Positions 11,952-64,000 of a stretch of DNA of 64,000 bases are shown here, piece by piece (the first letter of the stretch is position 1; every line of letters starts with the position of its first letter). The stretch is from Hyaloraphidium curvatum SAG 235-1 (Eukaryota > Fungi > Monoblepharomycota), in NCBI GenBank assembly GCA_025558095.1, contig JAIVFI010000023.1, forward strand, positions 1-64,000, read 5' to 3'. Below the pieces are notes generated by a model. It was not told the origin of the DNA. It saw only the letters and a program-made list of their open reading frames with translations, and made no database searches. The position numbers and the translations under genes were made by a program.

Positions 11952-12166
11952 AGGATTCACGGCAACGCGCCCTGCTGTGTCGACGGCGGCATAGCTGCGG
12001 GGAGGCGGTGTGAATAGGAGTCGGGCGATAGAACAGCTAAGGCCCGACGCTCCGCCACACCGAAGCCCTGACTCGCCGACCGTGTCCCCCATAAAAGCTC
12101 CCGAGGTTCACGACCGCCGATGGACCCAAACACCGAGCGCCGTACATATCTGCATCGCTTCCCACC

Positions 12167-13009
12167 ATGTCTGCGCAGCCTGAGGAGTCCTACCGCAAGG
12201 ATGCGCGCTGGGAATGGGCGATAGATGCCGAACACCCCGTCAACCGTTTCCTGAGGCGAATCTCGGAGATTCTCAGCAAAGGATACGGTTCCCACTACAT
12301 GCGTGGCCTGGAGGCATCGCCTCGCCCCATTGGGAAGGAGAAGCTCCGGGTGACGCTGACCATCTCGAGTCTGGCGGCAGGCTTCTCCTACATCGGACTC
12401 TCGGGCGCCGTCCCGGACTTCGAGCGCAGCAAGTTCGGCTCTGTTGAAGCCCGGTTGCTGGCCTACGGCCTCTTTTCCTTCTGCTCATTCGGCCTTTGCC
12501 TCCTTGCCTCGCTCATTTCGGGAACCGTTCTTGGCTCGCTCGGCGAGGTCTCGGACCAGAAGATGTGGATCCGCCAGAACTATGTGCTCCTCCAGGTACC
12601 CTTCTACCTCTGCGCGACGGGACTCACCGCCATGCTGGCCAACATCCTCGTCGTGGTCTCGACGATCTACGGCCTCTGGCTGTTCGTCGCCGTCACGGCC
12701 ATCACCTTTCTCCTTTTCGGGATCGCTCTGACGAGCGTGCACGTCTCATCCTCGTGGGTACGGCACAACCAGGCGGCAGAGTACAGGAAGGTGGTCGTGA
12801 AACCTCCCCACGGGGCCAAGATCATGCCGGCGCTGACGAGCCACACCGCCATCTTTGGCGAGGAGTGGAAGGGGTTCGTCGACCGCCCGGACCCACGCGA
12901 ATCGGAAGGCGACTGCTGCTGTAGGAGGGCCGTTACGCAGTCTTGGTCGGCCACTACCCTTGTGGGAGAGACGGCGGCAAAGAACGACGACAACGAGGAG
13001 ATTGTATGA
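12167..13009 (+). CDS. Four-TM membrane protein, Orai/CRAC-channel-like fold; intronless
   Basis: Four hydrophobic segments; EKLRVTLTISSLAAGF...LLAYGLFSFCSFGLCLLASLISGTVL resembles Orai TM1-TM2. Confidence 0.5.
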   Translation: MSAQPEESYRKDARWEWAIDAEHPVNRFLRRISEILSKGYGSHYMRGLEASPRPIGKEKLRVTLTISSLAAGFSYIGLSGAVPDFERSKFGSVEARLLAYGLFSFCSFGLCLLASLISGTVLGSLGEVSDQKMWIRQNYVLLQVPFYLCATGLTAMLANILVVVSTIYGLWLFVAVTAITFLLFGIALTSVHVSSSWVRHNQAAEYRKVVVKPPHGAKIMPALTSHTAIFGEEWKGFVDRPDPRESEGDCCCRRAVTQSWSATTLVGETAAKNDDNEEIV

Positions 13010-46950: not shown

Positions 46951-47698
46951 GGCGGTTTAAAGCCCAGGCTTCCGCGGAAGAAGGCCGCGCCAGGGAGTTC
47001 GAGCGCTGACAAAGCGCGCAAGGGCGGCATTATGGACCCATCGCGCCGGCCGCAGCAACACAGCCAAAGGGGCCCACGCCCCAAGACACCCTGTCGACCC
47101 TGGCTTTCGAACCCCAAAATCGCTAGAAACCGCGGCGAGCAACGAGCTCGGAGCGGTCGGGGGACCGTCATCCCCAGACTCGTTCGATTTCCTGGCACCG
47201 GCGGGTATCCCTCGGAACAACAAGCGGGTTGACGGGCGGTGTTCCCAAAACGGCGCGACAAGGTAACGAGTACGAGTATCATGTGGCGCTCAGAGGTCGT
47301 CCGCCGCCGCCCCTCATCTTTGTCTTCGGCCTGACGTCTGCACGAATCGCGATGTGGTTGGCACGACGAAGGGCGACCGACACAGCGGGGCCATTCGAGG
47401 GCAGAGCGGATGTCCCCCAGATGGATCTGAGGTGTTCCTAGATGACCTGAACTAACAGAGAGTTGATTTGGGTTCAGCGAATGGGGCCGTGAGTTGCGCG
47501 TCTTGGGTGCCCTCCCGAGGACTGGCCGTCCAGGGCCCAAAGCCAGGGTCTCGTCTCTCAAAGCTAATCGGCTCGCGCGGGACTCCATTGCTCCTCCCTC
47601 ACCTTTCCGTTCCTTCTCCTTCGGACGGACCGTCGTGCCCCGTGCCACCCTGTCGGGCTCGAGACACCGCACCCCGCTCCGCCGCCCGACGCGTCGCG

Positions 47699-49054
47699 AT
47701 GGCACCCGTGGCCGGCACCGGCCCCGACTACGCGTCGGCCTTCCCCGCCGACGTGGTCTCCAAGCTCACTCTGACCTTCGCGCCGGACGTGTGGAAGCGG
47801 ATGCTGGGCAACGTCGCGGCCATCTTTGCCAGCAGGGCGAAGCGCGCCGAAGCGATGAAGAAGCTGGACAAGGGGATGCTCGAGAAGCTCCTTGCCATCG
47901 TCGGCGACATGGACGGCCTGAAGAAGGTGGACCTCGAGAAGCTGGCCCTGGGGCCGGACGGGGAGCTCGTCCAGCCCCTGCAGCCGTCCGAGCCTGCGCC
48001 CGACCTGGAGTGGTTCCCGGTCACGGTGGACTTTGGCGGAAAGAAGTGGCAGCACGTTGGAGTCCGATTCAAGGGGCAGTCGTCTCTGTCGGTGTTCCAT
48101 AAGGGACAGACGACGAAGCTGCCCATGAAGCTGGGTTTCGATCATTACAAGGACGATCTGCCCAGCGTCAAGGGCCAAAGCTTCTTCGGGGTCAAAGATT
48201 TGATGCTGGCAAACAACTACCAGGACGATTCGGGGATGCGGGACACCCTGGTGTACAACGCCTTGCGCGAGGCCGGCCTGCCCTCCCTTCACACCGCCGC
48301 CTACGAGGTCTTCCTCGACACGGGCAGCGGGGCCGAGATCCTCGGCCTCTACACGGCAAGCGAGGCCGTCGATGACACCGGGGTCAAGAATTTCTTTGGT
48401 TCGGACGACGGCAACCTGTACGAGGGCGAGGGCCACGGGTCCACGCTGGCAGGGGCCAACACGGACGTCCTCGAAACCCATTTCCAAAAGAAGAACAACA
48501 AGAAGAAGGCCGACTGGGGGGACATCAAGAAGCTGCACGCGGTCCTCCACGACGCGAAGCGCACGACGGATCCGGCGGCCTGGCGCAAGGATTTCGAGGC
48601 CGTCTTTGATGTGGACGCCTTCCTGGGCTGGCTAGGCATCGCCTCTGCCGTCGGACACTGGGACTCGTACGGTATAGGGCCGCACAACTTCTACCTTTAC
48701 AATCACGGAGGCCGGATGACCTTCATTTCCTGGGACCACAACCTGACCCTGGAGGACACGGGCACGGCCAAATTCCGCACCGTCGACCACGCAAATGTTT
48801 CAGCCGCCGCGCCGCTCATCCGCTTCCTCCTCGACGACCCGGCTTACCACGCGCGCTACGTGGAGCTGTTGAGGAAGAACTTTGCCGGGGGGCTCGCGCC
48901 CGAGGCGTTCCTGAGAAAGGTGCACGCGCGGGCCGGGATCATTCGGCCTCACGCGCCCGACAAGGAGGCCTTCGACGCGTCGGTCAAGGCCATCGTGGAC
49001 TTTTATGAGGGCAAAGCGAAGGAGATCGAGGCCTACCTCGCCGTGCAGAAGTGA
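47699..49054 (+). CDS. CotH kinase-family protein; intronless, no signal peptide
   Basis: VGVRFKGQSS, KLPMKLGFD, DDSGMRD, GLYTASEAVDD, GNLYE, HWDSY...HNFYLY, FISWDHNL. Confidence 0.9.
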   Translation: MAPVAGTGPDYASAFPADVVSKLTLTFAPDVWKRMLGNVAAIFASRAKRAEAMKKLDKGMLEKLLAIVGDMDGLKKVDLEKLALGPDGELVQPLQPSEPAPDLEWFPVTVDFGGKKWQHVGVRFKGQSSLSVFHKGQTTKLPMKLGFDHYKDDLPSVKGQSFFGVKDLMLANNYQDDSGMRDTLVYNALREAGLPSLHTAAYEVFLDTGSGAEILGLYTASEAVDDTGVKNFFGSDDGNLYEGEGHGSTLAGANTDVLETHFQKKNNKKKADWGDIKKLHAVLHDAKRTTDPAAWRKDFEAVFDVDAFLGWLGIASAVGHWDSYGIGPHNFYLYNHGGRMTFISWDHNLTLEDTGTAKFRTVDHANVSAAAPLIRFLLDDPAYHARYVELLRKNFAGGLAPEAFLRKVHARAGIIRPHAPDKEAFDASVKAIVDFYEGKAKEIEAYLAVQK

Positions 49055-49181: not shown

Positions 49182-52100
49182 TCACGCAGCAGCCTCGTTC
49201 GCGAGCAGCCCCACGCGAACACCCGGCAGGGCCGTGGCGATTCTCCTCCCGACCGTCCGCGCACGCTTGGTCGTGGTCTTCCTGGCGAGCCGCCGGATGC
49301 GTCTCGTGGTGGTTTTGCGTCTGGTGCTGGTCCGCCGCCGCTTCGTCGTCGTCCGGCGACGCCTGCTCGTCGTCTTCCGGCGCGACGTCTGCACGATCGG
49401 CGAGGTGGTCCGTACGACGGGCGAAGTGGTTTGCACGACGGGCGAGGTGGTCCGCACGACGGGCGAAGTGGTCGGCCGCGGGGTCGTGAGGACAATCGGC
49501 GAGGTGGTCGGCCGCGGGGTGGTCAGCACGATCGGGGAGGTGGTCGGTCGGGCCGAGGTGCTCACGATCCGCTTGGTCGTCGGGATGGGCCTCGCCGTCG
49601 TCGGCACCGGTCGCGGAGTCGTGGCGACCGGCCTCGGGGTGGTGGCGATCGGCCCGGGCTGGTTCGGGACCAGGGCCGCGGGCACGGGAACGGTGAGCTG
49701 AGCGGCGCACCGCCCGCCGGCCGGGCAAGTCGTCGCCCGGATTGAGATCCAGTAGTTCGCCGAAGAGTCCGGAGGCGGGTACTTGGCCTCGGACCAGTCT
49801 CCCTCGGGTAGCGCGAGCCCGTTCCGTGCAAACACGCCAACGGGCTGCACGTTCGTCCACGGATCGTTCGTCCCGAAGCTCCCGCCCTTCTGCCTCAGCA
49901 CCACCCGAATGTAGAGCACCCGCCCGTCGAAGTGGTACGTGTCCCCGAACCCGTCCCTGACCTCGGCCACCGACCCCACGGGCCTGAAGTCGTGCACGCA
50001 CACCCCGCCCCACCAAGTCTGGCACCAGTTCAGGTTCGCCTGCACGGAGAACTGCGTGCCGGCAGGGTACGGGAACGCCATGATCAGCCTGGCCTCGTCC
50101 GGCACGACCAGCCCCTGGATGACGAAGCTCGACGGCGTGCCGCCGTCGAACCGCATGAACCACCCGCCCGACTCCGCAATCACCGGGCCCGTGACCTTTG
50201 AGTTGACCTCCACCACCAGCCCCGACGTCTCGGGGCGGCCAAAGTGCGTCAGCGTGCCCACCACGGGGCACGGCCTCACGGACCCGGGGTCCCACGCGCC
50301 GTTGATGCAGACGGTGTTGCCGATCTGCGACTGCACCGCGGTGTTGTACTGCAGCACCACCGAGGCCTCCGTGTCGCCCGGCCGCATGGGGCATGCCCAG
50401 AGCTCCTCGCCCGGCAGGCCCGGCGCGGTGTTGGTCTGGATGCAATCCGAGTTCATGCGCCACCACTCCCGCGCCCAGGTCGAGCCGAGCATGATCCTGT
50501 TGCCGCGGAGGGAGGGGAGGTACGGCCCGTAGACGGAGCCGTCGGCGTCGAGCCAGCTGGCCAGGCGGCCAGAGACGGTGGTGCCGCCGGGGTCGGTGAG
50601 CGAGGTGGTAAACTTGACGAGGCGGGGGACGAGGACGTTGTCGTAGGTGACGTTTCGGGTCGCCTGCATCTGCGGGCGGAGGACAAGGGGGTCAGACTGT
50701 GCCCGGAGACGGGAGCAGGCAGCAACGCGGCCGGAACACCCACCACCTCGGGCACCCACTCGTCAGAGTGCGTCAGAATCTGCCATATGCTGTTCCCCGC
50801 GCACCGGCTCTCGGGCCAGTTGTACACGCACGGCCCGTCCCAATCCGACCTGCAGTTCCTGAACGTGATGTCGGTGATGATGTGCCTCTGCCCGACATCG
50901 TACCACGTCCACCCCGAGAAGGATTGGAAATAGGCCCAGTCCCGGTCGTGGCACACGCCCCAACCGACGTCCCACCGCGGCGCGCCCGCGCGGGAGCAGC
51001 CTGCGAACCACGCGGGCTTGTTCCCCGTGCGGCACGTGTGAAGCACCCCCGAGGCGGAGACCTGCCCAAAGACGTTGGCGGCGAGGTTGATGTCCGCCAG
51101 CTCGAACCGCACAATGTCGGAGCGGTCGCCCCAGTGCTGCATGCCGCGGTTGGACAGGAACACCTTGGTGTCCTCGAACCGGAGCCACACCCTGTCGTCG
51201 TCGCCGCACCAGTCGTTGGCCGGCACCGTGCAGGTCGAGTGCGACTTGCTCCGCCCGGGGGTGTAGGTGAGCAGGCTATTGCCCCACGCGCCCTTGTAGG
51301 TGAGCTGCCCGCCGACGTAGATCCCGCCGGCCGAGTTGAACCAGAACCCCGTCGAGTGCGCCGAGTTGCCCCTAAACAGCAAAAACGGCCTCGTCCCCGG
51401 GGAGAACCCCTGCACGTTTGCATGCAGCTTCACCGGCCTCTCGAGGGTCGGGAACGCGAATCCCGCCCACCCGCCGGACGCCGCGTTGCCGAGGAAGGAG
51501 TTGTATGCGTTGCCGCCGTAGAATACCCCCGCGGCGACGTCCGACGGGAGTATGAGGGAGGGCGACTCGTCGGCCCACGGGGCGCCCTGGGACCAGTACG
51601 AGTCGAGGAAGGGGGTGACCCAGGCGCCGAGGGGGTGGACGTGCGCGCCGAAATTGAAGTGGAATTCGTTGTTTTCTGAGCGGGCGGGGGGAGGTCAGAT
51701 CATCGGCGGGGGGGGGGGGGGGGTGCGCGCGTGCCGGTGAGGAGACGACGCCCACCTTCGACACCGTCCTCGAGGAAGTAGCAGTGCCCCATGGCATCGT
51801 ACGCCGTGTTCTCGTGCAGCCTGGCGTAGCTCGTCCCGTGCACCGCGAAGCACCGGAAGAAGCTCCTGTGCACCGACGAGTCCGTCACCACGGCCCCGAC
51901 CGGCTTCCCCTGCTGCGAGCCCATCAGGTGGAAGTGCATCGGGTAGCGCCCCAGGACGTTCGTCTGGCCCATCCTGTACAGTTCGACGCCCGAGACGAGG
52001 GCCGAGGCGCGGGTGCCGGTGACCAGCACGTGGCCGCCGTAGCCGGTCTGGTACTTGTCCTCGCAGGGGTACGAGGAGCCATAGCGGTCGGTGCAGGCGG

Positions 52101-53173
52101 TGGGGACGGTGTCGGTGGGCTCGGAGGTGGCCTCGTTGCCCTGGATGAGGAGGTCGCGGGAGAGGAGGGCGACCTCTGCCTGGTACTCGGGGCTGCGGCG
52201 GAGACGGGGGAACATGCGTTCAGGACCGAGACAAGTGCATGGAGCAGGGCGATAGTGCTTACCCTCCGTAGTGGGTGAAGGAGAGTGGGGTGGCCACGCG
52301 GATTGCGGCGACGTTGGGGCCGAGCGAGGTCCTAAAGACCCCGGAGATGGTGAGCTCCTCGTTGCGGTGCCAGTCCCTGGCGTCCTTGAGCTCCGTGGTG
52401 GTGACGACGATGCGCTGGCCCGGCTGCCAATTGGGCACGTCCTGCACCAGAAGCACCGTGTCCCCCGCGCGTGCGGTCGCCGCGAGGCGGGTCCAGGTGG
52501 GGGTGTACAGGGTGCCGTGCAGCGAGAGGCTGCCGTTGTCGACGTGGATACCCTTGACCCACGGGTCCGGGGCCGGGCTGACGGGCTGGTCTGAGCGGGC
52601 GCCGTGCAGGGTGACGGAGATGCGGGAGCGCAGGCGGCAGCCCGGTGCGCCGGCGCGGAGGGCGCCGAGGACGCGGAAGCCGCGGGCGCGGATGGCGATG
52701 GAGGCGTCGCCGATGATGAGCTCCGAGGTGGCGGGGATCGTAATGGTGCCGAAGACGGTGTTGGAGCCGTTGACGGCGGTCGTGGGCAGCGAGCACGACG
52801 AGATGAGCACCTTGGAGTTTGCCGGCAGCACCACGTTGCCCTGCGAGGGCACGGTGCCGCCCCACGTCGCGGGGCTGTGCCAGTCGACGAGCCCCGGTTG
52901 GAGGTGCGGGCAGGCGGCCGGCGAAAAGTCCGGGATCGCCAGCTTCGGCGCCGGCCTGGCCAGCGTGACGGCCTCGCTCCAGTGGCCCTGCGTGATCGGG
53001 CGGGAAGGCGTCCCCGCGCCGGCGGGCAGCTCGCCGTCGGGCAGCGCCGCCGTCGGAAACGGCTGCCCGCCCGCGGCCGTCGGGAACGCGTCGCGCACGC
53101 ATTGCCCCGCCGCGCCGCCCGCCGCACACGCGATCGCCGCCAGCGCGAGCGCAGCGGCCCGCGGGAGGCGCAT
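49182..53173 (-). CDS. Secreted G8-domain protein (TMEM2/CEMIP/fibrocystin-like beta-helix) with Thr/Pro-rich and basic C-terminal tail; 3 introns
   Basis: Signal MRLPRAAALALAAIACA; WHSPATW; G8 GALRAG; PTWTRLAATA; AEVALLSRD; MGQTNVLGRYPMHFH; GHCYFLEDGVE. Confidence 0.9.
49390..49650 (-). repeat. Coding tandem repeats (TTSP[IV]V[RQL], TTPRP) in the G8 gene
   Basis: 21-nt and 36-nt units such as acgacgggcgaagtggt / gaggtggtcggccgcgggg. Confidence 0.85.
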
Positions 53174-53717
53174 CGCGGCGCGGGAGCGTCGGTGACGCCG
53201 ACGGATCGGGGTTGCCGCAAGCGGCGGCGGCGTCGGCGGCACAGCCAGGCGTCCCAAACGGTCCCGGCCGACACACAGCGCGCCTGGACTCCGATCCGTG
53301 CGCACTCGCCGGCCAAACAGGTGCAGTTGTGTCGGAACGGCAGGCAGACCCCGGTCGCCGCAGCCGAGCCACCGCGCGAAACTCCGACGTAGGGTCTCCC
53401 CAGCCTCCGATCCAGGAACCGCAAGGTCAGCGCCGCAGCAAGCTTCCACTCCCCCATCAGGCCGGTCCCTAGATGTCCCCCGCGGGAAAGAAGTGGGGAT
53501 GGCCGCTTCCAGGCTGAGATGGGGCGGGCGGTGGTGGCACGGTGCCGCACCGGCGCGTCAAGTCGAGTCAGGTGGCGCTTGCGGTCGGGCCGCACGGGGA
53601 ACCGACTTTCCAAACACATCGAATTGAGCTTCGATCCCCGCGCCGTACAGAATGGAAACAGAAGTCTGCGCTGCTTCGATGCCCGATGCCGCATGTCTCC
53701 CAGGTTGAGATCCAAGC

Positions 53718-54425
53718 TCAGATGCCGACCACGGTCACCCCGGGGAGGCTCTCAAGGCATTCGCGGGCATCCGCATCCGCGGATCCACGTATTTCCACCC
53801 TGGCGTATCCGTGCAGAGGCTTTTCAGCGAACGAGCTCTCCATTTCCTCGAGCAACGGGCGCACATCCGGTCCCCGCATTTCCGGCGCGGCCACGGTAAC
53901 CGTCGTGCCGCGCGGCCCCGGCCTGATCCAGGCGAAGATGACCACGTCCTTCAGCGCGTGCGTGGCGACCCGGACCGTGTACGGCGCCCTGTCACGATCG
54001 TCGGCGAACGAAAGCAGCTCGTGTGCGAAGGTCACCGCGGCAAAGTCTCCCAAGGCTGCTTCGAAGCGGAGCTCCTTCATGTTGGGGCAGCCCTTCAGTA
54101 TCGCGGATACGCAGCGCGGGAGCCTGTAGATCTCTTCGACCTCCGCGAATCTCGTCGGGGAAACGAACGGCACCGAGGCGGCAAACACCGCCTTGCGGAC
54201 CAGGTCACCGCACGGCACCCTGTCCGTGAACTGTTGCTCGATCGTAAGCACGTTGGTCTCCGTGACATCGATCCTCCTCATGAGCGCAGGCGGCGAAACG
54301 GCGCGCACGTCGTGGCACGCGAGCGAGAGCTCCAGCAGCGTCCTCTTGAGCCCGAGAGCCGCGAGCGCCTCCGCAATCTCGCCAAAGATGTCAGTGGGGA
54401 GACGTAGAAGGTCGATAGTGGCCAT
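53718..54425 (-). CDS. F-box-like hypothetical protein
   Basis: MATIDLLRLPTDIFGEIAEAL...LLELSLACH..V..ALMRRI; CPNMKEL LRR-like segment. Confidence 0.6.
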   Translation of the reverse strand: MATIDLLRLPTDIFGEIAEALAALGLKRTLLELSLACHDVRAVSPPALMRRIDVTETNVLTIEQQFTDRVPCGDLVRKAVFAASVPFVSPTRFAEVEEIYRLPRCVSAILKGCPNMKELRFEAALGDFAAVTFAHELLSFADDRDRAPYTVRVATHALKDVVIFAWIRPGPRGTTVTVAAPEMRGPDVRPLLEEMESSFAEKPLHGYARVEIRGSADADARECLESLPGVTVVGI

Positions 54426-55054
54426 GGTAGCTCGGGAAGCGAAAGCGATGTGCGATGGGGTGGTGACAGGACGACCGCTGACGTGGAGGTCACTTTCCAC
54501 AACTTCGACCGGTGAGAAGTCCACCACAGCACCCCAACCGGCCCGGAAATCGCCATGGAAGACGGTTGCGACGTGACTCCTGCTTCTCTCGCCACGCTAT
54601 TGTTATTCCGCTTTCCTGATGTAGCCGATGGGTGCGACGCCACATACGCTCCGGCGCCGCCGCAGCAACCGGTGCCTCGTGGCCCCGCCATCCGCCCTGC
54701 CGCCCCTGCGCGGAAGGTGCTACAGGGGGTCACGACGCCCCGTGGGGAGAGCCGAAAGTGTGACAAGCTGGAGGCGCGGTTCGATGATGAGTACAACAAG
54801 GACTCTGGAGACTACGATCTCCCAAGCTCCTGCGGCACGTCATGCGCGTGGTCCCGAGGCGCTCGAGACGCAGGTCCGCGAGGTGGACGCGTAGGAGCAC
54901 CAAAATCTGTACCACCGCGCAGACTTTAAGGCTTCAAGTTGCTGCCTCCTTTTCCAGTAGCCGCAACCCCGGCGACAGATGATCGGAGTGATGCCTCGTG
55001 GGGGACACTGGAACCCGCGCGCAGGCAGCGGAACTCCGGCACCGACTCCCGTCG

Positions 55055-55507
55055 ATGGAACCCGCCCTTGACGACGACGCGCCTCCGCCGTCCCTCGGGA
55101 CCCTCCCGCCGGAGCTCCTCTCCCGCCTCGTCGACTTCCTCCCCGCCGCCGCCGCGTGCCGCCTCGGGTCGGCGTGCCGCGCGCTGCACCCCGCCGCCGT
55201 CGATGCGCGCGAACGCCGCCTCCGCGAACTCGCTGCACAGCTCGACGCGCTCCTCCGGACGCGGCGGCCTCTCGACGCCGAGTGCGCCGCGCTGCAGGGG
55301 CGCGCGGCCGCGCTGCACGCCGCGGCGGTCGCCGGCGCGACCACGCCGCAGGAGTTCCAGGTCGCGCTGGCGGAGCTGGCGCCGCGGCGGGACGCGGTGC
55401 GGTTGCGGATCGAGGAGCACGGGCGGCGGGAGGCTGAGCTCCGGGCACAGCTGCAGCGCGTGCTCGCGGGCCGGACAGGCTGCGTCGCGGGGCCCGAGCC
55501 GGAGTGA
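55055..55507 (+). CDS. Small F-box-like coiled-coil protein
   Basis: SLGTLPPELLSRLVDFLPAAAACRLGSACRAL; paralog of 4196-4654. Confidence 0.65.
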   Translation: MEPALDDDAPPPSLGTLPPELLSRLVDFLPAAAACRLGSACRALHPAAVDARERRLRELAAQLDALLRTRRPLDAECAALQGRAAALHAAAVAGATTPQEFQVALAELAPRRDAVRLRIEEHGRREAELRAQLQRVLAGRTGCVAGPEPE

Positions 55508-55929
55508 CCGGCGGGCCGGACAATCGTGGCGCTTTGCCGGGCTCGGCTGCTGGCTCTTTGTCACGGCAGAGGAAGGCGAAGGACTAGGGACCCATTGTGA
55601 TCACCTGGGGGCGACTAGCAGGTAGCTCCTGACTTTGGCGCACAATGTCCGAAGTGATGCATGGTTTCGGGAGTTCGAGGGGATGGGGCGACGATTCAAA
55701 GACAATATACACGAAAAGCGAAGCCCTGCCCCCCGAAATTTACCCTTCCATCTCGTAGAGCCACTGAGCCGTGTCCCTCCACCCGACGACTTACCTCACC
55801 GGCCGCCCTCCCAGCCGCCGTGGACGCCGCCTGCAGCGACCCCGATCCTGAATCCTGGCCGTCCGAAGAACCTCCAGCAGAGCCGCCGCCGTTGCCGCGA
55901 ACGCAAAGATTGACCCAGCGTCGGAATAT

Positions 55930-56700
55930 GGGTTCTGTGCCGCGCACCAGGGCCGCCGTAAGCCGCTGGCGTGCGGAAGTCATGAAGAGGGCCCTCAGCC
56001 CATCGATGTCATCCCCGGGGCCGTCAGGGTCAGGGCCGCGGGGGAGGGCGAGGAGAGAGAGCTGTTGAAGAAGCCGCTCGAACTCGGGATGGAACGTCCC
56101 TGGAGATTCTGGAACGAGAGAGGTCGGAGTGTTGGTCCCGATCAGGTAGTGGCGCTGGTAGTGCCGGATCTTAGCAAGCCTCTGCGGCCGCAAGCGCCTT
56201 GGTGGCCGCTGCGGGGAGCTGCGCGGGGTTCGGGTACGTGACCGAGATGTCGATCAACCACGGGAGAGACGAGTTGAGGAGCCATACGTAGGCATCGCAG
56301 CGATGGTCCGTGTTGATGGTCCCGCGATCGGGATGCTCGAGTGCCACCTCCGTGGCATGGTGATCGGGGGAAGCAGAAGCAGCCGGCGGCGGGGGAGCAG
56401 GGGCGGCCCCCCGGGGTAAGCCCTCGGCAGCAAGCACGGCTTCCTTGACGACGTCCATGGGAACGTTGATCCGAGCAGCGCGTTGTTGATGGCCTTGTGG
56501 CGGGTGGCGGCGGCTTTCGCCAATACGATTGGGACCGTAGGGAGGGGGTGTTCGGGCGCTCACTGGAGCCGACCGGGGCCGAGGTGATGGCGCGGCTTGG
56601 AGCCGAGGTGAACGCGGACGCGGCCCCGGCGATGCTACAGGGGTTGATGCAGCACCCCAACATGGATATGGTTCCGGTGATCGCTGAGGGGCATGAGGCA
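55930..56700 (-). mobile_element. Decayed 3' fragment of an RLE-type (CRE/R2-like) non-LTR retrotransposon
   Basis: ATRHKAINNAL, HRCD, LIDISVTYP, AAAEA-KIRHY, ESPGTFHPEF, ARQRLTAALVRG across frameshifts. Confidence 0.6.
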
Positions 56701-56925
56701 GCATTCCCCGAGTCAGGAAGAGGAGCGGCCGGGCGAAGGGTTGGTGAGGAGCTCAGGACCGGATCCTCGCGGCCCGCTGTCTCTGCTTCCTTGTTGTTCC
56801 GATTAGCAAGAGCAAAGCTCTCCAACATCCGATCTGCCGGGGGTCATCGCAGGATTCAGCAGCTCGAAGCGTGGGGGCGCCCCCGGCAACATCGTCCCGC
56901 CAACCACCCCCGGCCATCCCCGGCC

Positions 56926-58482
56926 ATGGACGCCTCCTCGCTCCTCGCCGACGACGACCCGGCGCTCCCGGGGTACGCCCTCCGCCGGTCGTGCCTCTCC
57001 GGCGACGCGGACACGGCCGTGCGGCTGCTCCGCGCGGCGCCTGCCGACGCGCTCGCGCGGACCCCCGGCGGCGTCACGGCGCTGCACTGCGCGGCGGCGG
57101 GCGGCGGCGAGAAAGTGCTGCTGCCGCTGTTCGAGGAGGACTTTGGCGAGGCGGCGTGGAGCGCGACCGACGCCGCGGGGCGCACGCCGTTCTACCTGGC
57201 CTGCGCGTACAGCAACCACGCGGCGGTCAGGCTGCTGGGCAGGGAGATGGTGCGCAGGCCCGACGGCACGTGGGACTTTGTCGCGGACATCGAGGCGGGC
57301 GCCGGCGGGCGGCCACCGGAGCGGGCCAGGGTCGGCGGCGCCCGCGCGGACGAGACCACCGCGAGGCTGGTCAGGGACGCGCGCGCGCACAGGGAAAAGC
57401 ACCGCGAGCAGGCGCGCAGGCTGGCCGCAGAAAAGGCCGCGGCCGAGAAGAGGGCGGCGGAGAGGGAGCAGCGCCGCGCGGGCAGGGTCGAGGGGTGGCA
57501 GAAGGTCCCCCCCGGCCTGCTCGGTTCCCCCAAAAAGCAGCGCGGCGACGGGACGCTGGAGCTGCCGACGCCGGCACAGATGGCCAGCGTGCGGGGCGCG
57601 CTGCACGGCCCGCCGAAGAAAAAGGCGAAAACGGAGCCGGAGCCGCGGCCGGGCGGACCGCTGCACGAGCTGGACGAGGAGATCGAGGAGCTCCCGCCCA
57701 CGCCCACCTTCCCGATCGTGCGGAGGAGGCTCAAGCCCGGGGGCACGCCGGGGGCGGCCGTCAAGGTCGAGGTGTTCAGGCCCGGCGCACCGCCCAGGCC
57801 CACCAACACGGAGCAGCCCGCCGAGGACCCCGCACCCCCGGCCTCTCTGCCGTCACCCGCCCCCTCGCAATCCCCCAACGTTACCAACGACGTCCCCCAC
57901 AAACCGCAGGTGGACATGCAGCCCGACGCCCCGCGGGACGGCTCCGAATCCAGCTCCCTCACCGCCGTCGCCCCCCTTCTCCCCACGGACCCCACCCCCC
58001 CTCCCCCCATCGGCCCGCGACCCCCGTCGCCGGACACCCCCGCCGCGCAGCAACCCGCCCCCGCACCCGGCACCGAGCACCGATCCGCGCGCCTCGCGCT
58101 CGCCGAAGCCGAGCTCGCCGCCAAGCGCGAGCTGCTCCTCGTCGAAAGGGAGCTCGCGGCGTTGCGGCGCGAAGCCCCGGGGAGGCCGTTGGAGGAGCTC
58201 AGGGAGGCGCTGTCGATCGAACGGGAGCTCGCCACCCTGCGGCGGGACTCCCCCCCGCGCGCGCTGGAGGAGCTGAGGGAAGAAGTGGAGCTGGAGAGGG
58301 AGCTCGCGCGGCTGCGCGGGAACAGGACGCTGGAGGATGCGAGGGAGGAGCTCGAGACGACGCGGGAGCTGGTGTGGGCGTGCAGGGAGCTCGAGATGCT
58401 CGACAGGGGTGAGGAGGAGGGGGGTGGGGGTTCGGGTGGGGGTTCGGGCGTCGACGAGGGGGGGAGGAGGAAGGGAGGATGA
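56926..58482 (+). CDS. Ankyrin-repeat protein with Pro-rich region and coiled-coil C-terminus
   Basis: GVTALHCAA and GRTPFYLAC ankyrin motifs; repeated LEELRE..ERELA.LR. Confidence 0.75.
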   Translation: MDASSLLADDDPALPGYALRRSCLSGDADTAVRLLRAAPADALARTPGGVTALHCAAAGGGEKVLLPLFEEDFGEAAWSATDAAGRTPFYLACAYSNHAAVRLLGREMVRRPDGTWDFVADIEAGAGGRPPERARVGGARADETTARLVRDARAHREKHREQARRLAAEKAAAEKRAAEREQRRAGRVEGWQKVPPGLLGSPKKQRGDGTLELPTPAQMASVRGALHGPPKKKAKTEPEPRPGGPLHELDEEIEELPPTPTFPIVRRRLKPGGTPGAAVKVEVFRPGAPPRPTNTEQPAEDPAPPASLPSPAPSQSPNVTNDVPHKPQVDMQPDAPRDGSESSSLTAVAPLLPTDPTPPPPIGPRPPSPDTPAAQQPAPAPGTEHRSARLALAEAELAAKRELLLVERELAALRREAPGRPLEELREALSIERELATLRRDSPPRALEELREEVELERELARLRGNRTLEDAREELETTRELVWACRELEMLDRGEEEGGGGSGGGSGVDEGGRRKGG

Positions 58483-58742
58483 GGGGCCGGTGGACGGATC
58501 GGGGGCACGATCTCGCGGCACCTGTACAGGGCCCCCAGGAGCCGGCTCAGGCCCGCTTCCTGCCGCAGCACGTCCGTATGCTCCCTCAAGGCGTCCCCGT
58601 GCCGCCTTAGCGCCGCCCTGCAGAGGAGCACGTCCGCGAGGCCGCCGCCCGCGGCGCGTTCGTCCGCGGCTGCCGCGGCGGGCGCGGGAAATGCCCTGCT
58701 ATCCCTACGTCTTGACTTCCTGCACGTCGCGGGCCACAGGGT

Positions 58743-59010
58743 GGGACTGGCGAGGGTGGAAGTCCGCGCTTCCGTGGATGAGGAAGCCCGCGAATGCCTC
58801 GGGAACCTTCCCGGTGTGACCAGATCTCTATCACAGGCGCTGAGCGCCCCCCAACCCCGATACATCACGTCACGCCATATACATTGAATTCGGGGAAGAG
58901 GGGAGGGGTTAGATGTCCGCCGAGCTGCCGGGTACAGGCTTCCTTGAACCTGTTCATAAGCTGTTGGCAACCCAGTACGCGCCCCCGGTGTGACCATCGT
59001 CTCCGCCTGA
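58743..59010 (+). pseudogene. Third fragment of the 53718 gene family, split by a 161-bp insertion
   Basis: GLARVEVRASVDEEARECLGNLPGVT[insert]IVSA*. Confidence 0.7.
58823..58983. mobile_element. 161-bp insertion flanked by a 13-bp direct repeat (probable TSD)
   Basis: CCCGGTGTGACCA at 58810-58822 and 58984-58996. Confidence 0.6.
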
Positions 59011-59311
59011 TCGTGGATCTCGGTGGGAAAGGGTAGTGGGAAAGGGGCAAGCCCTGCTGTCTTCTCGTCTTTGGAGGCCCAAGCCGCTACGCGTCTTAAT
59101 GGCCCTCTTCTATGGGTTGATGACGAGATCTGTGCTTCCACTTTGTCTGACTGCCTTGCCGACCCTGCTTTGTCGATCCTTTCACTACTTGCTAAGCACT
59201 TTGCTTAGCAACTTGCTTAGCTACGACCTTTGGGAGGATACTTTTCTTAAAGCTTCCTTCTTCCATGCTTCTTCTCTCTTTCTTATTACCATTATTATAC
59301 TTATTTTTTAA

Positions 59312-59338
59312 TTTAGGGAGTTTAGGGAGTATAGGGAG
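59312..59338 (+). repeat. Three telomere-like 9-mers (TTTAGGGAG)
   Basis: tttagggag tttagggag tatagggag. Confidence 0.7.
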
Positions 59339-59790
59339 TATTAATTTATATATATATTTATACTCTTGTGGTGAACATCCTTCTTAGGGGGAGGGGGCGC
59401 CCTGCCTTACCCCGGTATTTTTGAAAAGGGTCAATTTTATCCTCCGAATCCTCCCATCCTCCCGTAAACATTTTGCCTCCAGAAATGTGCTTCATATTAT
59501 ATATGTATGCTTTCCTGTTTTAGCTTTACACTCTCATCCTCCCGTAAGTCAACTTCGTTGACGACCAGTCTTACCCCACCACTGAGTACCCCACCTGTCT
59601 TACCCCGCCACCTCTTACCCCACCACCTGCTTCAATTCCCTTCCCCCCCTCCCCCCCGCCTCCCTCATAGGGCTTACGCCCAAATACGTGCTTTGGCGTA
59701 AGCCATTCGTTTGACGATGTCATATACTTCGTTCCTACCACGTGCTTTGAACAAGCTTTATCTACGTGCTTTGGCGTAGCCATTCCTCAT

Positions 59791-60091
59791 TTCTATACAG
59801 TTCTATACATTTATTTTTTTTCTATACAGCTTATTTCTCCTGTCTAAACTCCCTCTTTTACATCTTTCCAGCTTATTTGTATAGATGTATAGAATGTATA
59901 GAATTTAAGTAAGTTATTGTACCAATCTATGATACCCGGAGTCTATCCCATGCAAATGCCCCAATTTCCTATACTTTCTATATTTCTATACACGATTCTC
60001 ACATTCTGATTCTTGCTTCTTTTCTCGTCTCCTTTCTAAGTGCTTATTCCGCCCCCCATCGCCGCGTTCTACGGCCCCAAGTTTCTATACA
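59791..60091. repeat. About 10 copies of a TTCTATACA motif in both orientations
   Basis: Forward at 59791, 59801, 59820, 59984, 60083 (variants at 59966, 59976); inverted TGTATAGA(A) at 59878, 59886, 59895. Confidence 0.8.
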
Positions 60092-60169
60092 TGTTTTACC
60101 TTCCGTGATATCACGGGGTTTTGCGAAGCAATATCACCGAAGGTGCTTTCTCAACTTTCTTCAAATTGC

Positions 60170-60544
60170 CTATGCAATCGCTCCTTCATGGCTTTTCTCA
60201 AACAAATGCAACAGATTTTTGTAATTCCGTGCATTGCAATCAAGATCGATGTTGGTGAATCTTTTTTTCCGATGACATCGGATACTTTGCGTCGGTTTCT
60301 CAAGACATCCAATTTGAGTGCGAGGAGCATCACAAAAAGCCGTTAAAGCACGAGCTTCATCAGGTGTTAGTTCGTTTAGGGTCAATCTCTTTTGGCTTTG
60401 GTTGGGAATATCAACAAGATCAACCTGGTGAACCTCATTCGGGTCGTCACGTGCTGGAGTCTGTGCTTCTCTCGATACGGATAAGTACAAGAACGTGCCA
60501 ACAAAGATGATAAGGACGAGAGTGAAAGATATCCAGAGCCACAT
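60170..60544 (-). CDS. Small orphan protein with N-terminal TM/signal segment
   Basis: MWLWISFTLVLIIFVGTFLYL followed by a hydrophilic Cys-containing domain; starts 20 nt after the SET gene stop. Confidence 0.5.
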   Translation of the reverse strand: MWLWISFTLVLIIFVGTFLYLSVSREAQTPARDDPNEVHQVDLVDIPNQSQKRLTLNELTPDEARALTAFCDAPRTQIGCLEKPTQSIRCHRKKRFTNIDLDCNARNYKNLLHLFEKSHEGAIA

Positions 60545-60564
60545 CTACTTTACTGTTATACATT

Positions 60565-62398
60565 TTAGAAGTCTTCGAAATTGTACCCATAATCCAAGTA
60601 AAGTTCGTCGCCCGCACCGATGCTACGGGAAGAGTAAACGAGCAGCAATGGAGACTCCTCATCGTCAAGGCTTTTCCAGCACAATGTGCAGTTGGCGAGT
60701 TCATAAGAATGGTTGATAAGATGAGCGAAAGTTTTAGCAAAGTCGGGCATGTTGCCCAAAGAATCGGTAGGATCGATCACGAAAACGTTGCTCCTGGCGG
60801 AATACCGTTCAGTATCGCGCCCGAGCGAGTATACTTTCCATTCGTAATCCAGGCAAGTGGTCAAAGTTCCGCAATAAGCAAAGATGGGCAGACCCGCAGG
60901 GATATCACGTTTGGCAAAAACACCCAGTCCGGCGTTTGGGATACGGGAAACACGAGATTCAAAGACGGCGTCGAGGTCACGAAAAGCAAGGAGAGCCCGC
61001 GCACGTTCAAACACAAGGTTGGCGACGTGCCGATTGCCGGGGCAAATGAGATTGGCAAAGGCGATTCGGTCGTCGGTAACGAGAGCGAGTCCAAAACGAG
61101 CAGGACGAGCAAAAAGGTCACCAATGACAGAGTCGATATTCATAGGAGGCCCATGGTGAAAGCGTTGAACGAGAGCATAGGTAGCCGAGTTCAGTTGATC
61201 CCGAGTTATCGTGCGAGAAGCAAAAGCAAGAGCAGATATAGCCCATTGATGAACAGTCAAATCGGGGGAAAAGTCAGAATCAGCGAACATGGCCACATGA
61301 GCTAGAGACGCACCGTTTAGAACACAGGTTTGGGGCTTAACTGGCCGAAAGCCGAACCTGGTGTCTGAGCGCGAAGGAACTCATCGAGGTCGGCTTCGAA
61401 GCCCACGAAACGCCCTGGGCTCATCGGATCGAGAACATGCCAATCAAAGTCGTTGAAGGACTCGGGGAGATCGGGCCAAAGCATGGTGACGCCATCTTGC
61501 AGTGTGACAGCAAGCTCGTCGAGATCGGGAGCCGAGGCAACGGGAGCCGGCGCAACGGGAGTTGGCGCAATGGGAGCTGGGGCAACGGGAGTCGGCGCAA
61601 TGGGCACCGGCGCAACGGGAGCCGGAACAACGGGAGCCGGCGCAATGGGCACCGGCGCAACGGGAGCCGGGGCAACGGCAGCCGGAACAAACTCTGTGAA
61701 GGGACGTTAGACGATATCACGGAACACAAGACAAACGAACCTTCAAAAGCGCGTTTTAACCAGTCGATGGCGGCCCGAAGGTTCGAGTAAAGAGCATAGG
61801 AAACGTCGTCCGAGTACTCGATGTAGGAGGTGGAATGAACGCGTTCAAGTAGGCTTTGATCAACGATGACGGGAACAATCTCATCGCGGAACCGAGACTG
61901 GAACTCGGCGACCTCATAATCGAGAGCAGCGAAGGCGAGGACTTGCTGACGACGCAGAAAAGTGGCGTCGGGGTTGAGTGGAGTGAGGTCCTCGTGCTGG
62001 GGAGGCAAGGCCGGGTGACGAGCATCGAGCAACGCGATCCAGATCCGCGGGTCACGGTCCGCGTTATGAACTAGGCTGTCGGACGCGATGGCATGAGAAA
62101 ATAGGTTTCGAAACGAAGGGATAACGACTCACAAAGAGCCGGGATCCGTGGCGGGGCAGCTGGCGAACCAGAAGACATAGAGCGCGTCGCCGACACGAAC
62201 CGTGTTGTTGTCACGAAGCGCGTCGCACAGGACGTGACTTGGGGCGAGAGCGGCGGGAAAGAGGATAGCAGGGATGTAGGCACGCGCCCAGTCGCCGGCC
62301 ATGAGGCCTTCGTTCCAGACATAGACGAGTTGGAAAGGTTTGAGCGAAGCGGGATTGACCACGACAAACTGGTCGCCGCGAGCGAACGACAGGGCCAT
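60565..62398 (-). CDS. Spliced ~557-aa PWWP-like / Pro-rich / wHTH-like / SET-domain protein (exons 62398-62133, 62075-61741, 61693-61358, 61301-60565)
   Basis: Introns 62076-62132 (GTGAGT..CAG), 61694-61740 (GTTCGT..CTAAC..CAG) and 61302-61357 (GTTCGG..CTAAA..TAG) all keep the frame; SET motifs AGLGVFAKRDI, FAHLINHS, ELYLDYG. Confidence 0.72.
61531..61690 (-). repeat. 15-nt coding tandem repeat encoding P[VI]AP[ATV]
   Basis: About 10 units of ggcgcaacgggagcc-like sequence. Confidence 0.9.
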
Positions 62399-63001
62399 GG
62401 TGGTTCAGTTAATGACGTGATACGTTGCGTTCCCGCGTCGGTGGGGACGGCCATCGGTATCGGAAGAGACCGGAAAGCGGAAAAGTGCGGAGAGCGAGAC
62501 GATGCGTTTCGCCCAATGGAACAACAGGCCAAACTATCGGAACAACTGAACCGACAAATAGGAAAGCGCAAAGTGCGCGACCAGTTGAAGGAAAGCGTGC
62601 CGTGTTTTTCCCGAGCGGCCATGAGTAACTCACCGCATGGGGATAGGCGCTGGGACCCGGCTAAACGGCATAACTCAAACCGGGACGCAAGCAAGTGTTA
62701 AGCTAAATGGCGAATCGCAAACGCGTTATAGAATCACACACTTTACCGTGCTGCCGAGACGGAGACACAAACTTACGAACTCGTCCTTTGTCGGGGCTTA
62801 GCTTCGGCCGTCAAAGATCGAAGGCTTTCCCTTCCGGGTGTCGGGAGAAGGGGTTCGTGGCAAAGTCCGATCTGAAGCAATAGGCCGTGCGCCTATATAT
62901 AGAGCCAGGTTCAACGAATATAAGCCAGCGTTCCGACGCCTGACGCTGCATAATTCTACACACGAAACGCGTCCGTGTTGTGGCCGCATGATCAGCCAAG
63001 A

Positions 63002-63391
63002 ATGAGCAATTCAAACTCAGTGGGACGGAGGGATTGGAGCCAAAACACAGCGCCATCGGAGAACGGGGACACAGGAATGTCGTCGAGAAGCTCGAATTCC
63101 AGCGCGGAATTGGAGCCATCGCGAGCAAAGTTGACTGCCGCGTCGGTTTGCGCGGTCTTGAAAGGGGGCAGAGTCGCGTGGAACGAGGTGAAGTCGGGGG
63201 CCAGTCGGTGGCGCAGGATCCTCATGTGGCCTTGGCAGACGAGACTCTACCGGGAATTGGCGAAGGTGGTGTCGACGGAATACCTTGACTCTTTGAGCGC
63301 CGCACACGCGGCGGACACGGACGCGATTCGACGAGGACTTGAACTCGAAATGAAGGCGAAGATACTGCAAACACACTATGTAATCATGTAA
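63002..63391 (+). CDS. Orphan hypothetical protein
   Basis: ATG-initiated ORF downstream of TATATATA (~62894); helical-looking C-terminus; convergent with the 63406 gene. Confidence 0.4.
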   Translation: MSNSNSVGRRDWSQNTAPSENGDTGMSSRSSNSSAELEPSRAKLTAASVCAVLKGGRVAWNEVKSGASRWRRILMWPWQTRLYRELAKVVSTEYLDSLSAAHAADTDAIRRGLELEMKAKILQTHYVIM

Positions 63392-63405
63392 CTTGGCCAA
63401 AACAG

Positions 63406-64000
63406 CTAAAGCTCATCGCTCATTTTCCTCCGACGCCCACTGCTTCTGGTGGGCTTGGGATCCTCCTCCATTTCCACGACTTCTTCTTCCTCCGGGACAT
63501 CACCACCAGTGCCCTCCCCTTCGTGCCCCGAGGCTTGACCACCGTTGCCCTCCGAGCCGCTTCCCTCGTTGCCTTTGTTGGCGTCGCTTGCGCTAGCCGA
63601 CTGCCAGCCATCTTCCCCTTCGCCAGCAGACTGCGAGCTCCCCGAGCTGGAATCGGAACCGGAGCCGGAACCAGAGCCGGAACCGGAGCCGGAACCAGAG
63701 CCGGAACCGGAACCGGAACCGGAACCAGACCCAGACTGGGAGCCTTCGGCATCGCTCTTGCCGGCATCGTAAGCCTTGGGAACGGCGTCAGCCCACTTCG
63801 TGGCGTAAAGAGCGGCGGTATGGAACGCGTTCTTCTGGCCCATAAAGTATGCCGATTTGGCGCCAGAAAGATACGAGGCCTTGATCTTGTGGGCAATGTC
63901 GGGAGACAACAAAGGCACGATATCGCTATTGATGACAGACTGGGAGAAATGAGCTAAACCGGCATAGTCACGGCCGGCTTCGACACTCACCTGCTCCCAC
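63406..64000 (-). CDS. 3' part of an orphan protein with (GS)n linker and acidic/basic tail; 5' end outside the window
   Basis: Open frame; probable 51-nt intron 63940-63990 (GTGAGT..CCCAG); RRRK possible NLS. Confidence 0.55.
63650..63735 (-). repeat. Hexanucleotide repeat encoding (Gly-Ser)n
   Basis: ggaacc/ggagcc/agagcc units. Confidence 0.9.

What the first reader, a model, noticed from the sequence alone, without database searches (positions are those of the whole stretch)
60565..62398. Hidden spliced PWWP-like + wHTH-like + minimal SET 'reader-writer' protein carried by a foreign island
Seen: four ORF-track entries (62129-62398, 61421-62032, 61317-61652, 60565-61296) join into one 1674-nt frame through three canonical 47-57 nt introns, each with correct phase. 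The C-terminus is a clear SET domain (GLGVFA, HLINHS, ELYLDYG) with no pre-SET/AWS or post-SET cysteines, like viral vSET or bacterial SETs. Inference: exon 1 (QLVYVWNEG...YIPAILFP...ALYVFWFAS...SFLV) has the beta-barrel pattern of a PWWP/Royal-family reader, although it lacks a literal PWWP. The segment before SET (QWAISALAFASRTITRDQL...IDSVIGDLF...RFGL) looks like a winged helix. Host NSD-type enzymes pair PWWP with SET, but this compact architecture inside a low-GC island suggests a mobile element or virus that writes or propagates histone methylation, for example to escape or impose silencing.
Basis: partly seen in the sequence, partly recalled or inferred. Interest (0 to 1): 0.85.

Follow-up and report, generated by a model that had tools for sequence, protein, structure and literature searches.

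The report
Fungal island gene splices SET out
A low-GC stretch of DNA in an early-branching fungus carries an expressed gene with no known relatives that includes an intact-looking lysine-methyltransferase (SET) domain, but the RNA form seen stops before that domain and splices part of it away, so the full enzyme is likely a minor or conditional product of what is likely a mobile element's chromatin gene.

Summary
The four-exon, 1674-nt frame exists and is letter-for-letter the public 557-aa model KAI9015923.1 of Hyaloraphidium curvatum, so it is not hidden. The SET domain is real (Pfam 44.7 bits, cut-off 22.4), has no post-SET cysteines and no close relative. The island is real (GC 0.52 against 0.68). 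Contigs of the one RNA-like run show introns 1 and 2 but not intron 3. They read through the stop at 61317 and skip 480 nt (61313-60834, GT..AG), which removes the pre-SET segment and a third of the SET. The observed product is 325 aa without SET. The PWWP likeness scored no better than shuffles; the winged helix could not be tested (pLDDT about 32). No transposase, terminal repeat pair or viral hallmark lies in the 5 kb visible. Best reading: an accessory chromatin gene of a mobile element, with SET behind a splice switch. SET cargo is already known in oomycete and red-algal transposons. Moderate interest.

The parts
62133..62398 (-).
   Evidence: no homologue
62076..62132 (-). Intron 1, 57 nt, spliced in RNA contig
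61741..62075 (-). Exon 2 (aa 89-200), ends in predicted helices
61694..61740 (-). Intron 2, 47 nt, spliced in RNA contig
61314..61693 (-). Exon 3 as seen in RNA: Pro/Ala repeat linker (15-nt unit, 61526-61685), acidic-hydrophobic tail, stop TAA 61319-61317; gives a 325-aa protein
61302..61357 (-). Intron 3 of the 557-aa model, 56 nt; not seen spliced; imperfect branch site that itself holds the stop codon
60834..61313 (-). 480-nt intron seen in RNA (GTGCGT..AAG); its donor lies inside intron 3; removes aa 313-468 of the model
60955..61290 (-). Pre-SET segment with its own ATG at 61290 (241-aa ORF); low-confidence helix-helix-helix-strand-strand order; no family match
60565..60954 (-). Minimal SET domain (aa 429-557; Pfam match aa 437-551), motifs intact, no post-SET
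59791..60091 (.). Array of 7 TTCTATACA motifs (5 plus, 2 minus), none elsewhere in the 64 kb
   Evidence: most frequent 9-mer reached at most 3 copies in 200 shuffles
59023..60564 (.). Left, non-coding end of the island (GC 0.435) with many short tandem arrays; an RNA contig and a DNA contig leave the window sequence at 59023
62896..62901 (-). TATA-like box upstream of the gene (consensus match only)
63406..63939 (-). Last exon of an upstream, expressed orphan gene of the island (Gly-Ser repeat, acidic tail, basic C-terminal patch); runs off the window

Best explanation
The locus is a transcribed, spliced orphan gene in a low-GC island of Hyaloraphidium curvatum whose observed RNA encodes a 325-aa protein without SET, and it is likely the accessory chromatin gene of a mobile element in which two mutually exclusive introns would act as a switch for the methyltransferase. 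Shown: introns 1 and 2 are removed; the donor at 61313 joined to 60834 keeps the stop at 61317 and deletes the pre-SET segment and the first SET motif. Inferred: rarer use of the donor at 61357 and acceptor at 61302 removes the stop and gives the 557-aa SET fusion, which would methylate lysines, probably on histones of the element's own chromatin. Inferred: the short form (folded N-terminal domain, Pro/Ala linker, acidic-hydrophobic tail like an activation domain, the likeness being recalled knowledge) would act as a non-catalytic regulator. Inferred: the TTCTATACA array would be binding sites for an element-encoded protein.
For: RNA joints and the stop 3 nt before the last junction. SET frame open for 241 codons from its ATG, with motifs matching the invariant columns of 17 other SETs, which argues for recent selection. 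Intron 3 anatomy rarer than chance (about 3%). Sharp GC step and GC3 0.49-0.74 per exon against 0.73-0.93 in host ORFs. Motif array and short tandem arrays at the island end. A second flank at 59023 in an RNA and a DNA contig, the RNA flank not found in the window. aa 257-312 hold 13 D/E, 2 K/R and 15 F/W/Y/L. Precedent: SET cargo in HarbingerS, MuDR, Helitron and Plavaka elements, the last beside arrays of inverted repeats (passages); VANC targets form tandem motif arrays.
Against: No transposase, recombinase, TIR partner or viral gene in the 5 kb visible. The 557-aa RNA was not observed. P0001 is a one-member cluster on one contig and no paralogue of exon 4 turned up among proteins of 133-2000 aa, unlike an active family. 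Only one RNA-like run, as contigs. No DNA contig covers 60834-61313, so a genomic deletion in that sample is not excluded. No contig supports the window's own junction at 59022/59023, so the second flank could be a misjoin or allele. Substrate and function of every part are untested.
Confidence: 0.42

Rival explanations
1. The SET exon is recently defused cargo: a weakened branch site in intron 3 and a cryptic 480-nt intron now leave only the 325-aa protein, and the SET frame has not yet decayed.
For: Only the SET-less form is seen; intron 3 alone lacks YTNAY; no paralogue found; the 480-nt intron uses an AAG acceptor inside coding sequence.
Against: The frame and all SET motifs are intact despite about 30% identity to everything else; no homologue was available for a dN/dS test.
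Confidence: 0.22
2. The SET ORF is expressed on its own as a 241-aa protein from ATG 61290, by an internal promoter or from unspliced RNA, as in compact viral gene pairs; the fusion is an annotation artefact.
For: ATG 27 nt after the upstream stop, purine at -3; exon 4 has the lowest GC3 (0.49), as for a separately acquired piece.
Against: The one contig that reaches the SET 3' part is joined to exon 3 across the ATG; an out-of-frame ATG at 61298 lies just before it.
Confidence: 0.1
3. It is an ordinary fast-evolving host gene in a low-GC, repeat-rich region (for example near a telomere or centromere), not mobile cargo.
For: Host-type short introns and a TATA-like box; singleton protein; no mobility gene seen.
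Against: GC3 below all 20 host ORFs measured, a sharp step, and an orphan neighbour; best matches to solved eukaryotic SETs are weak (E 7e-5), unlike a conserved host methyltransferase.
Confidence: 0.14
4. The island is the edge of an endogenous large DNA virus and the SET is a vSET-like host-silencing enzyme.
For: Minimal SET as in vSET (passage); giant viruses of zoosporic fungi are reported (title and abstract start).
Against: Spliceosomal introns in both island genes; viral contigs gave only 3 weak partial matches, one of them in a phage-like gene context; the SET did not group with those 3 viral rows (no giant-virus SET was in the tree); 0 mentions of Hyaloraphidium or SET domain in the main text of PMC13533422 (supplements not read).
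Confidence: 0.12

Closest known systems
SET-carrying DNA transposons: HarbingerS and MuDR of Phytophthora, Helitrons, red-algal giant Plavaka PAG2 (PMC12730594 and bioRxiv 10.1101/2025.02.11.637652, passages; the Repbase reports seen only as reference titles)
   Same: SET methyltransferase gene as likely cargo of foreign DNA; short repeat arrays next to accessory genes.
   Different: No transposase or termini seen here; fungal host; no N6-adenine methylase partner; SET removed by splicing in the observed RNA.
VANDAL/VANC anti-silencing system (PMC5735166, abstract and section 9)
   Same: Arrays of a 9-nt motif in non-coding DNA; accessory protein with tandem peptide repeats.
   Different: No VANC domain matched in Pfam; binding and demethylation untested; VANC has no SET in what I read.
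vSET of chlorella virus PBCV-1 (PMC4150861, passages)
   Same: Minimal SET without post-SET cysteines.
   Different: Intron-containing nuclear gene with long N-terminal parts; no sequence link shown; H3K27 specificity untested.
NSD-type PWWP-SET methyltransferases (architecture recalled)
   Same: Only the proposed reader-plus-SET order.
   Different: No PWWP, AWS, PHD or post-SET detected; SET weakly and about equally like KMT2, SETD8 and bacterial SETs.
TET/JBP-carrying fungal DNA transposons (PMC12730594, abstract and passages)
   Same: Fungal mobile DNA with a chromatin-modifying cargo gene.
   Different: Reported from rusts, mushrooms and Pezizomycetes; DNA oxidase, not a lysine methyltransferase.

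Membership tests
SET domain (PF00856) | Score above the curated cut-off | tested here: met
   44.7 bits, cut-off 22.4, whole profile 1-105
SET domain (PF00856) | GxG, NHS and ELxxDY motifs with the catalytic tyrosine | tested here: met
   aa 435, 506, 545; match invariant columns of alignment A2
SET domain (PF00856) | SAM-dependent lysine methylation | not testable with these tools
   needs an assay
PWWP (PF00855) | Profile match | tested here: not met
   No Pfam hit at E up to 10; own 40-sequence HMM: 221 of 3000 shuffles and 15 of 285 window decoys score as high; block chain: 128-183 of 400 shuffles score as high
PWWP (PF00855) | Aromatic cage for methyl-lysine (PMC8934638 passages) | tested here: inconclusive
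   Best block alignment puts Ile at the second Trp and Arg at the preceding aromatic; third strand keeps aromatics; the alignment itself is not significant; cage positions recalled
PWWP / Royal family | Five-strand barrel fold | tested here: inconclusive
   Single-sequence model pLDDT 32; fold search covered only aa 160-202
Winged helix-turn-helix | Three helices plus beta wing | tested here: inconclusive
   Order H330-338, H346-362, H368-375, E380-387, E392-399 in a model of pLDDT 33; no Pfam or PDB sequence match
NSD-type methyltransferases | AWS and post-SET cysteine clusters, PHD fingers | tested here: not met
   7 scattered cysteines, none after aa 520; SET is the only Pfam family
SET-carrying DNA transposons (HarbingerS, MuDR, Plavaka, Helitron) | Transposase or RepHel gene in the element | tested here: inconclusive
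   None in 59023-64000; island runs off the window and no genome is held
SET-carrying DNA transposons (HarbingerS, MuDR, Plavaka, Helitron) | Paired termini, target-site duplication, several copies | tested here: inconclusive
   Second flank at 59023; no inverted partner in the window; singleton protein
SET-carrying DNA transposons (HarbingerS, MuDR, Plavaka, Helitron) | SET gene beside short direct and inverted repeat arrays | tested here: met
Giant endogenous viral elements / vSET | Viral hallmark genes or a SET nested among viral SETs | tested here: inconclusive
   None in 5 kb; query is an unplaced long branch in a tree without giant-virus SETs
Giant endogenous viral elements / vSET | H3K27 methylation by a dimer | not testable with these tools
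   needs biochemistry

The most novel reading that the evidence does not exclude
A fungal mobile element of an undescribed kind encodes one gene with two products: a constitutive reader-activator (very divergent Royal-family domain plus acidic tail) and, by a stage-specific splice switch, a reader-DNA-binder-writer that adds a winged helix and a minimal SET to mark the element's own motif-tagged chromatin.
Probability: 0.12. Interest if true: 0.75.

Novelty: new variant of a known kind. Interest (0 to 1): 0.38.

Why it matters
Mobile elements that carry their own histone-marking enzymes are known from oomycetes and red algae, but my searches found no report of this locus or of such SET cargo in fungi. 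If the long form is real, splicing would decide whether the element writes a chromatin mark, which one RT-PCR can test. In any case the public 557-aa model does not match the RNA seen, a warning for domain-architecture claims drawn from gene models.

Tried and rejected
No genome held, so copy number, the rest of the island and synteny were not tested. N-terminal 202 aa: only itself among 1.84 billion representatives; no usable ESM Atlas hit for aa 1-89 or 1-202; PDB sequence hits all E 0.26 or more and none a PWWP. Both AlphaFold2 single-sequence models were unusable (pLDDT 32.7 and 32.1) and three fold searches gave nothing (no Z of 5 or more, no E of 0.001 or less). PWWP seeds: 7 of 7 viral-contig matches were chance; 118 metagenome loci gave 46 unique pieces of 85 aa or more, 6 were dropped (intron read-through, low complexity, near-duplicates), 40 used; they were picked by a recalled motif, not checked with Pfam, and lean to canonical short-loop forms, so a very divergent barrel could be missed. 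SET tree of 34 rows (27 bacterial, 3 viral, 3 database hits, the query; no host fungal or giant-virus SET): query on a long branch, in no starred group; weak 90/87 join with P0002/P0004, whose 'algal-type' label is my guess. No match in phages. SET homodimer job: no answer, score 0.00, no evidence either way. No run is on record as RNA; X1 is treated as RNA because of its GT..AG joints. DNA runs X2 and X3 cover the island only in scraps, and contig depth is no copy number, so none is claimed. A ribosomal frameshift between the overlapping frames (61380-61320) was considered by eye; no in-frame slippery heptamer. Three other frame-joining GT..AG pairs exist but the RNA contig is continuous across them. 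No Rfam match in 55000-64000. Upstream gene: no homologue. Earlier-finding look-ups by place, sequence and relatives were empty. Paper search was swamped by the ordinary word.

Full report
Identity and observation. The product is identical to P0001, NCBI KAI9015923.1, hypothetical protein DFJ74DRAFT_678812 of Hyaloraphidium curvatum, a one-member cluster on one 699-kb contig; the species is in Monoblepharomycota. The model is thus already in the public annotation. That agreement is not independent proof of splicing, since how the model was made is not known to me.

The island. GC is 0.677 over 1-59022 and 0.523 over 59023-64000, and 0.435 in the non-coding left part. GC3 is 0.58 for the CDS (0.74, 0.63, 0.60, 0.49 by exon) against 0.73-0.93 for 20 host ORFs with Pfam hits (pre-filtered list). 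The first 59 kb hold ordinary host genes such as P450, CoaE, Rcd1 and CotH. The left end holds 7 copies of TTCTATACA in both orientations within 300 nt and none elsewhere in the window; the commonest 9-mer reached at most 3 copies in 200 shuffles. Many short tandem arrays lie at 59187-59990. An RNA contig and a DNA contig both leave the window sequence at 59023; the RNA flank has no match in the window. This fits an element end at a second site, but also an allele or a misjoin, as no contig spans the window's own junction. No transposase or viral gene was found in the 5 kb visible, the island runs off the window, and no genome is held.

RNA. Three runs hold parts of the stretch; none is on record as RNA. 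Run X1 shows 4 joints in 59001-64000, all with GT..AG ends. Two are introns 1 and 2. The third joins 61314 to 60833, a 480-nt skip. That contig is continuous from 61622 to 61314, so it keeps the stop at 61319-61317; the encoded protein is 325 aa, with the stop 3 nt before the last junction. The skip removes aa 313-468 of the model: the whole pre-SET segment and the first third of the SET with its first motif. Its donor lies inside intron 3, so the two introns exclude each other. The contig goes on to 60578, so the SET frame lies in the same transcription unit. Limits: one run, contigs drop rare forms, and no DNA contig covers the skipped part. Intron 3 still looks like an intron: its donor differs from the used donor of intron 2 at one position, and a CTAA-like site 19 nt before the AG holds the stop itself; about 3% of 20000 shuffles give such a set (12% without the branch demand; post hoc). 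It lacks the YTNAY motif present in 4 of 4 RNA-supported minus-strand introns. The SET frame also has its own ATG at 61290, giving 241 aa.

Domains. SET: PF00856 at 44.7 bits over the whole profile, motifs matching the invariant columns of 17 other SETs, no cysteine after aa 520. It has no close relative: best database hits E 0.088 and 2.9, best solved relatives KMT2A at E 7e-5, then SETD8, 27 bacterial loci mostly at 27-32% identity, 3 weak viral loci. In a 34-row tree it is an unplaced long branch; host and giant-virus SETs were missing. N-terminus: aa 1-202 match only themselves among 1.84 billion representatives. A profile of 40 natural PWWP-motif domains scored it at -0.7 bits, equalled by 221 of 3000 shuffles and 15 of 285 decoys. 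So PWWP is unsupported, though a divergent barrel is not excluded. Pre-SET segment: a helix-helix-helix-strand-strand order in a pLDDT-33 model and no sequence match: untested in effect. aa 203-256 are a Pro/Ala repeat; aa 257-312 are acidic and rich in F/W/Y/L, like an activation domain (recalled likeness).

Mechanism. I commit, at 0.42, to an accessory chromatin gene of a mobile element. Shown: foreign composition, motif array, transcription, two introns, the SET-less form, an intact SET frame. Inferred: mobility; rare or conditional use of intron 3 to give the SET fusion; lysine methylation of the element's own chromatin; a regulator role for the short form; binding to the array. Rivals: defused cargo (0.22), ordinary host orphan (0.14), endogenous virus (0.12), separate 241-aa SET protein (0.10).

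Comparison. SET cargo is known: HarbingerS and MuDR of Phytophthora (PMC12730594, passages), and Helitrons and red-algal Plavaka PAG2, with arrays of inverted repeats beside accessory genes (bioRxiv 10.1101/2025.02.11.637652, passages; its supplements were closed). VANC proteins act on tandem 9-nt motifs (PMC5735166, abstract and section 9). vSET is a minimal dimeric H3K27 enzyme (PMC4150861, passages). PWWP readers need an aromatic cage and basic patches (PMC8934638, passages); aa 1-110 here hold 10 D/E and 8 K/R. The Mycodnaviridae paper has no mention of Hyaloraphidium or SET domain in its main text (PMC13533422, term search only; supplements not read). Searches (listings only) showed no report of this locus or of SET cargo in fungal elements. 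Unreviewed notes of this scan list SET-bearing transposons in other genomes; I did not test them.

Verdict. The SET and the island are real. What is new is an orphan minimal SET in likely mobile DNA of an early-branching fungus, sitting behind mutually exclusive introns. New variant of a known kind; interest 0.38.

Noticed in passing
window 63406-64000, minus strand: Expressed orphan gene upstream in the island: 51-nt intron 63990-63940 supported by an RNA loose end, Gly-Ser repeat, acidic tail and basic C-terminal patch; about 890 nt of its RNA contig lie beyond the window. Not found in the protein database even as itself.
   Followed up: partly
window 63185-63237, plus strand: A low-depth contig with a 51-nt GT..AG skip on the plus strand, between the two island genes: possible antisense or non-coding transcript.
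   Followed up: no
window 59023-59326: Held at the end of an 1822-nt RNA contig whose other 1518 nt lie elsewhere and begin GC-rich; a short plus-strand frame 59011-59208 could be the 3' end of a gene cut at 59023.
   Followed up: partly
window 55700-56750: Many diverged contigs pile up at 55700-56400; the minus-strand frames resemble the C-terminal endonuclease part of a CRE-type non-LTR retrotransposon (recalled motif; no Pfam hit).
   Followed up: no
window 58821-58987: About 170-nt repeat with many contigs and different flanks on both sides, directly left of the island; SINE- or MITE-like.
   Followed up: no
window 53718-54596 and 58483-58887: Two orphan frames with similar C-terminal ends on opposite strands; a contig links the two regions.
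   Followed up: no
window 49185-53557, minus strand: Large G8 plus CEMIP-type beta-helix gene with a Thr/Pro/Arg-rich tail.
   Followed up: no
window 59314-59341: Three copies of a 9-nt TAGGGAGTA-type unit, telomere-like by eye, inside the island's left end.
   Followed up: no
L010:2758-3189: A 143-aa minimal SET ORF in a phage-like viral contig, upstream of a helicase-like and a recombinase-like ORF (likeness by eye).
   Followed up: no
window 12095-13006 and 47456-49051: Orai-1-like (weak, E 4e-4) and CotH kinase genes in this fungus.
   Followed up: no
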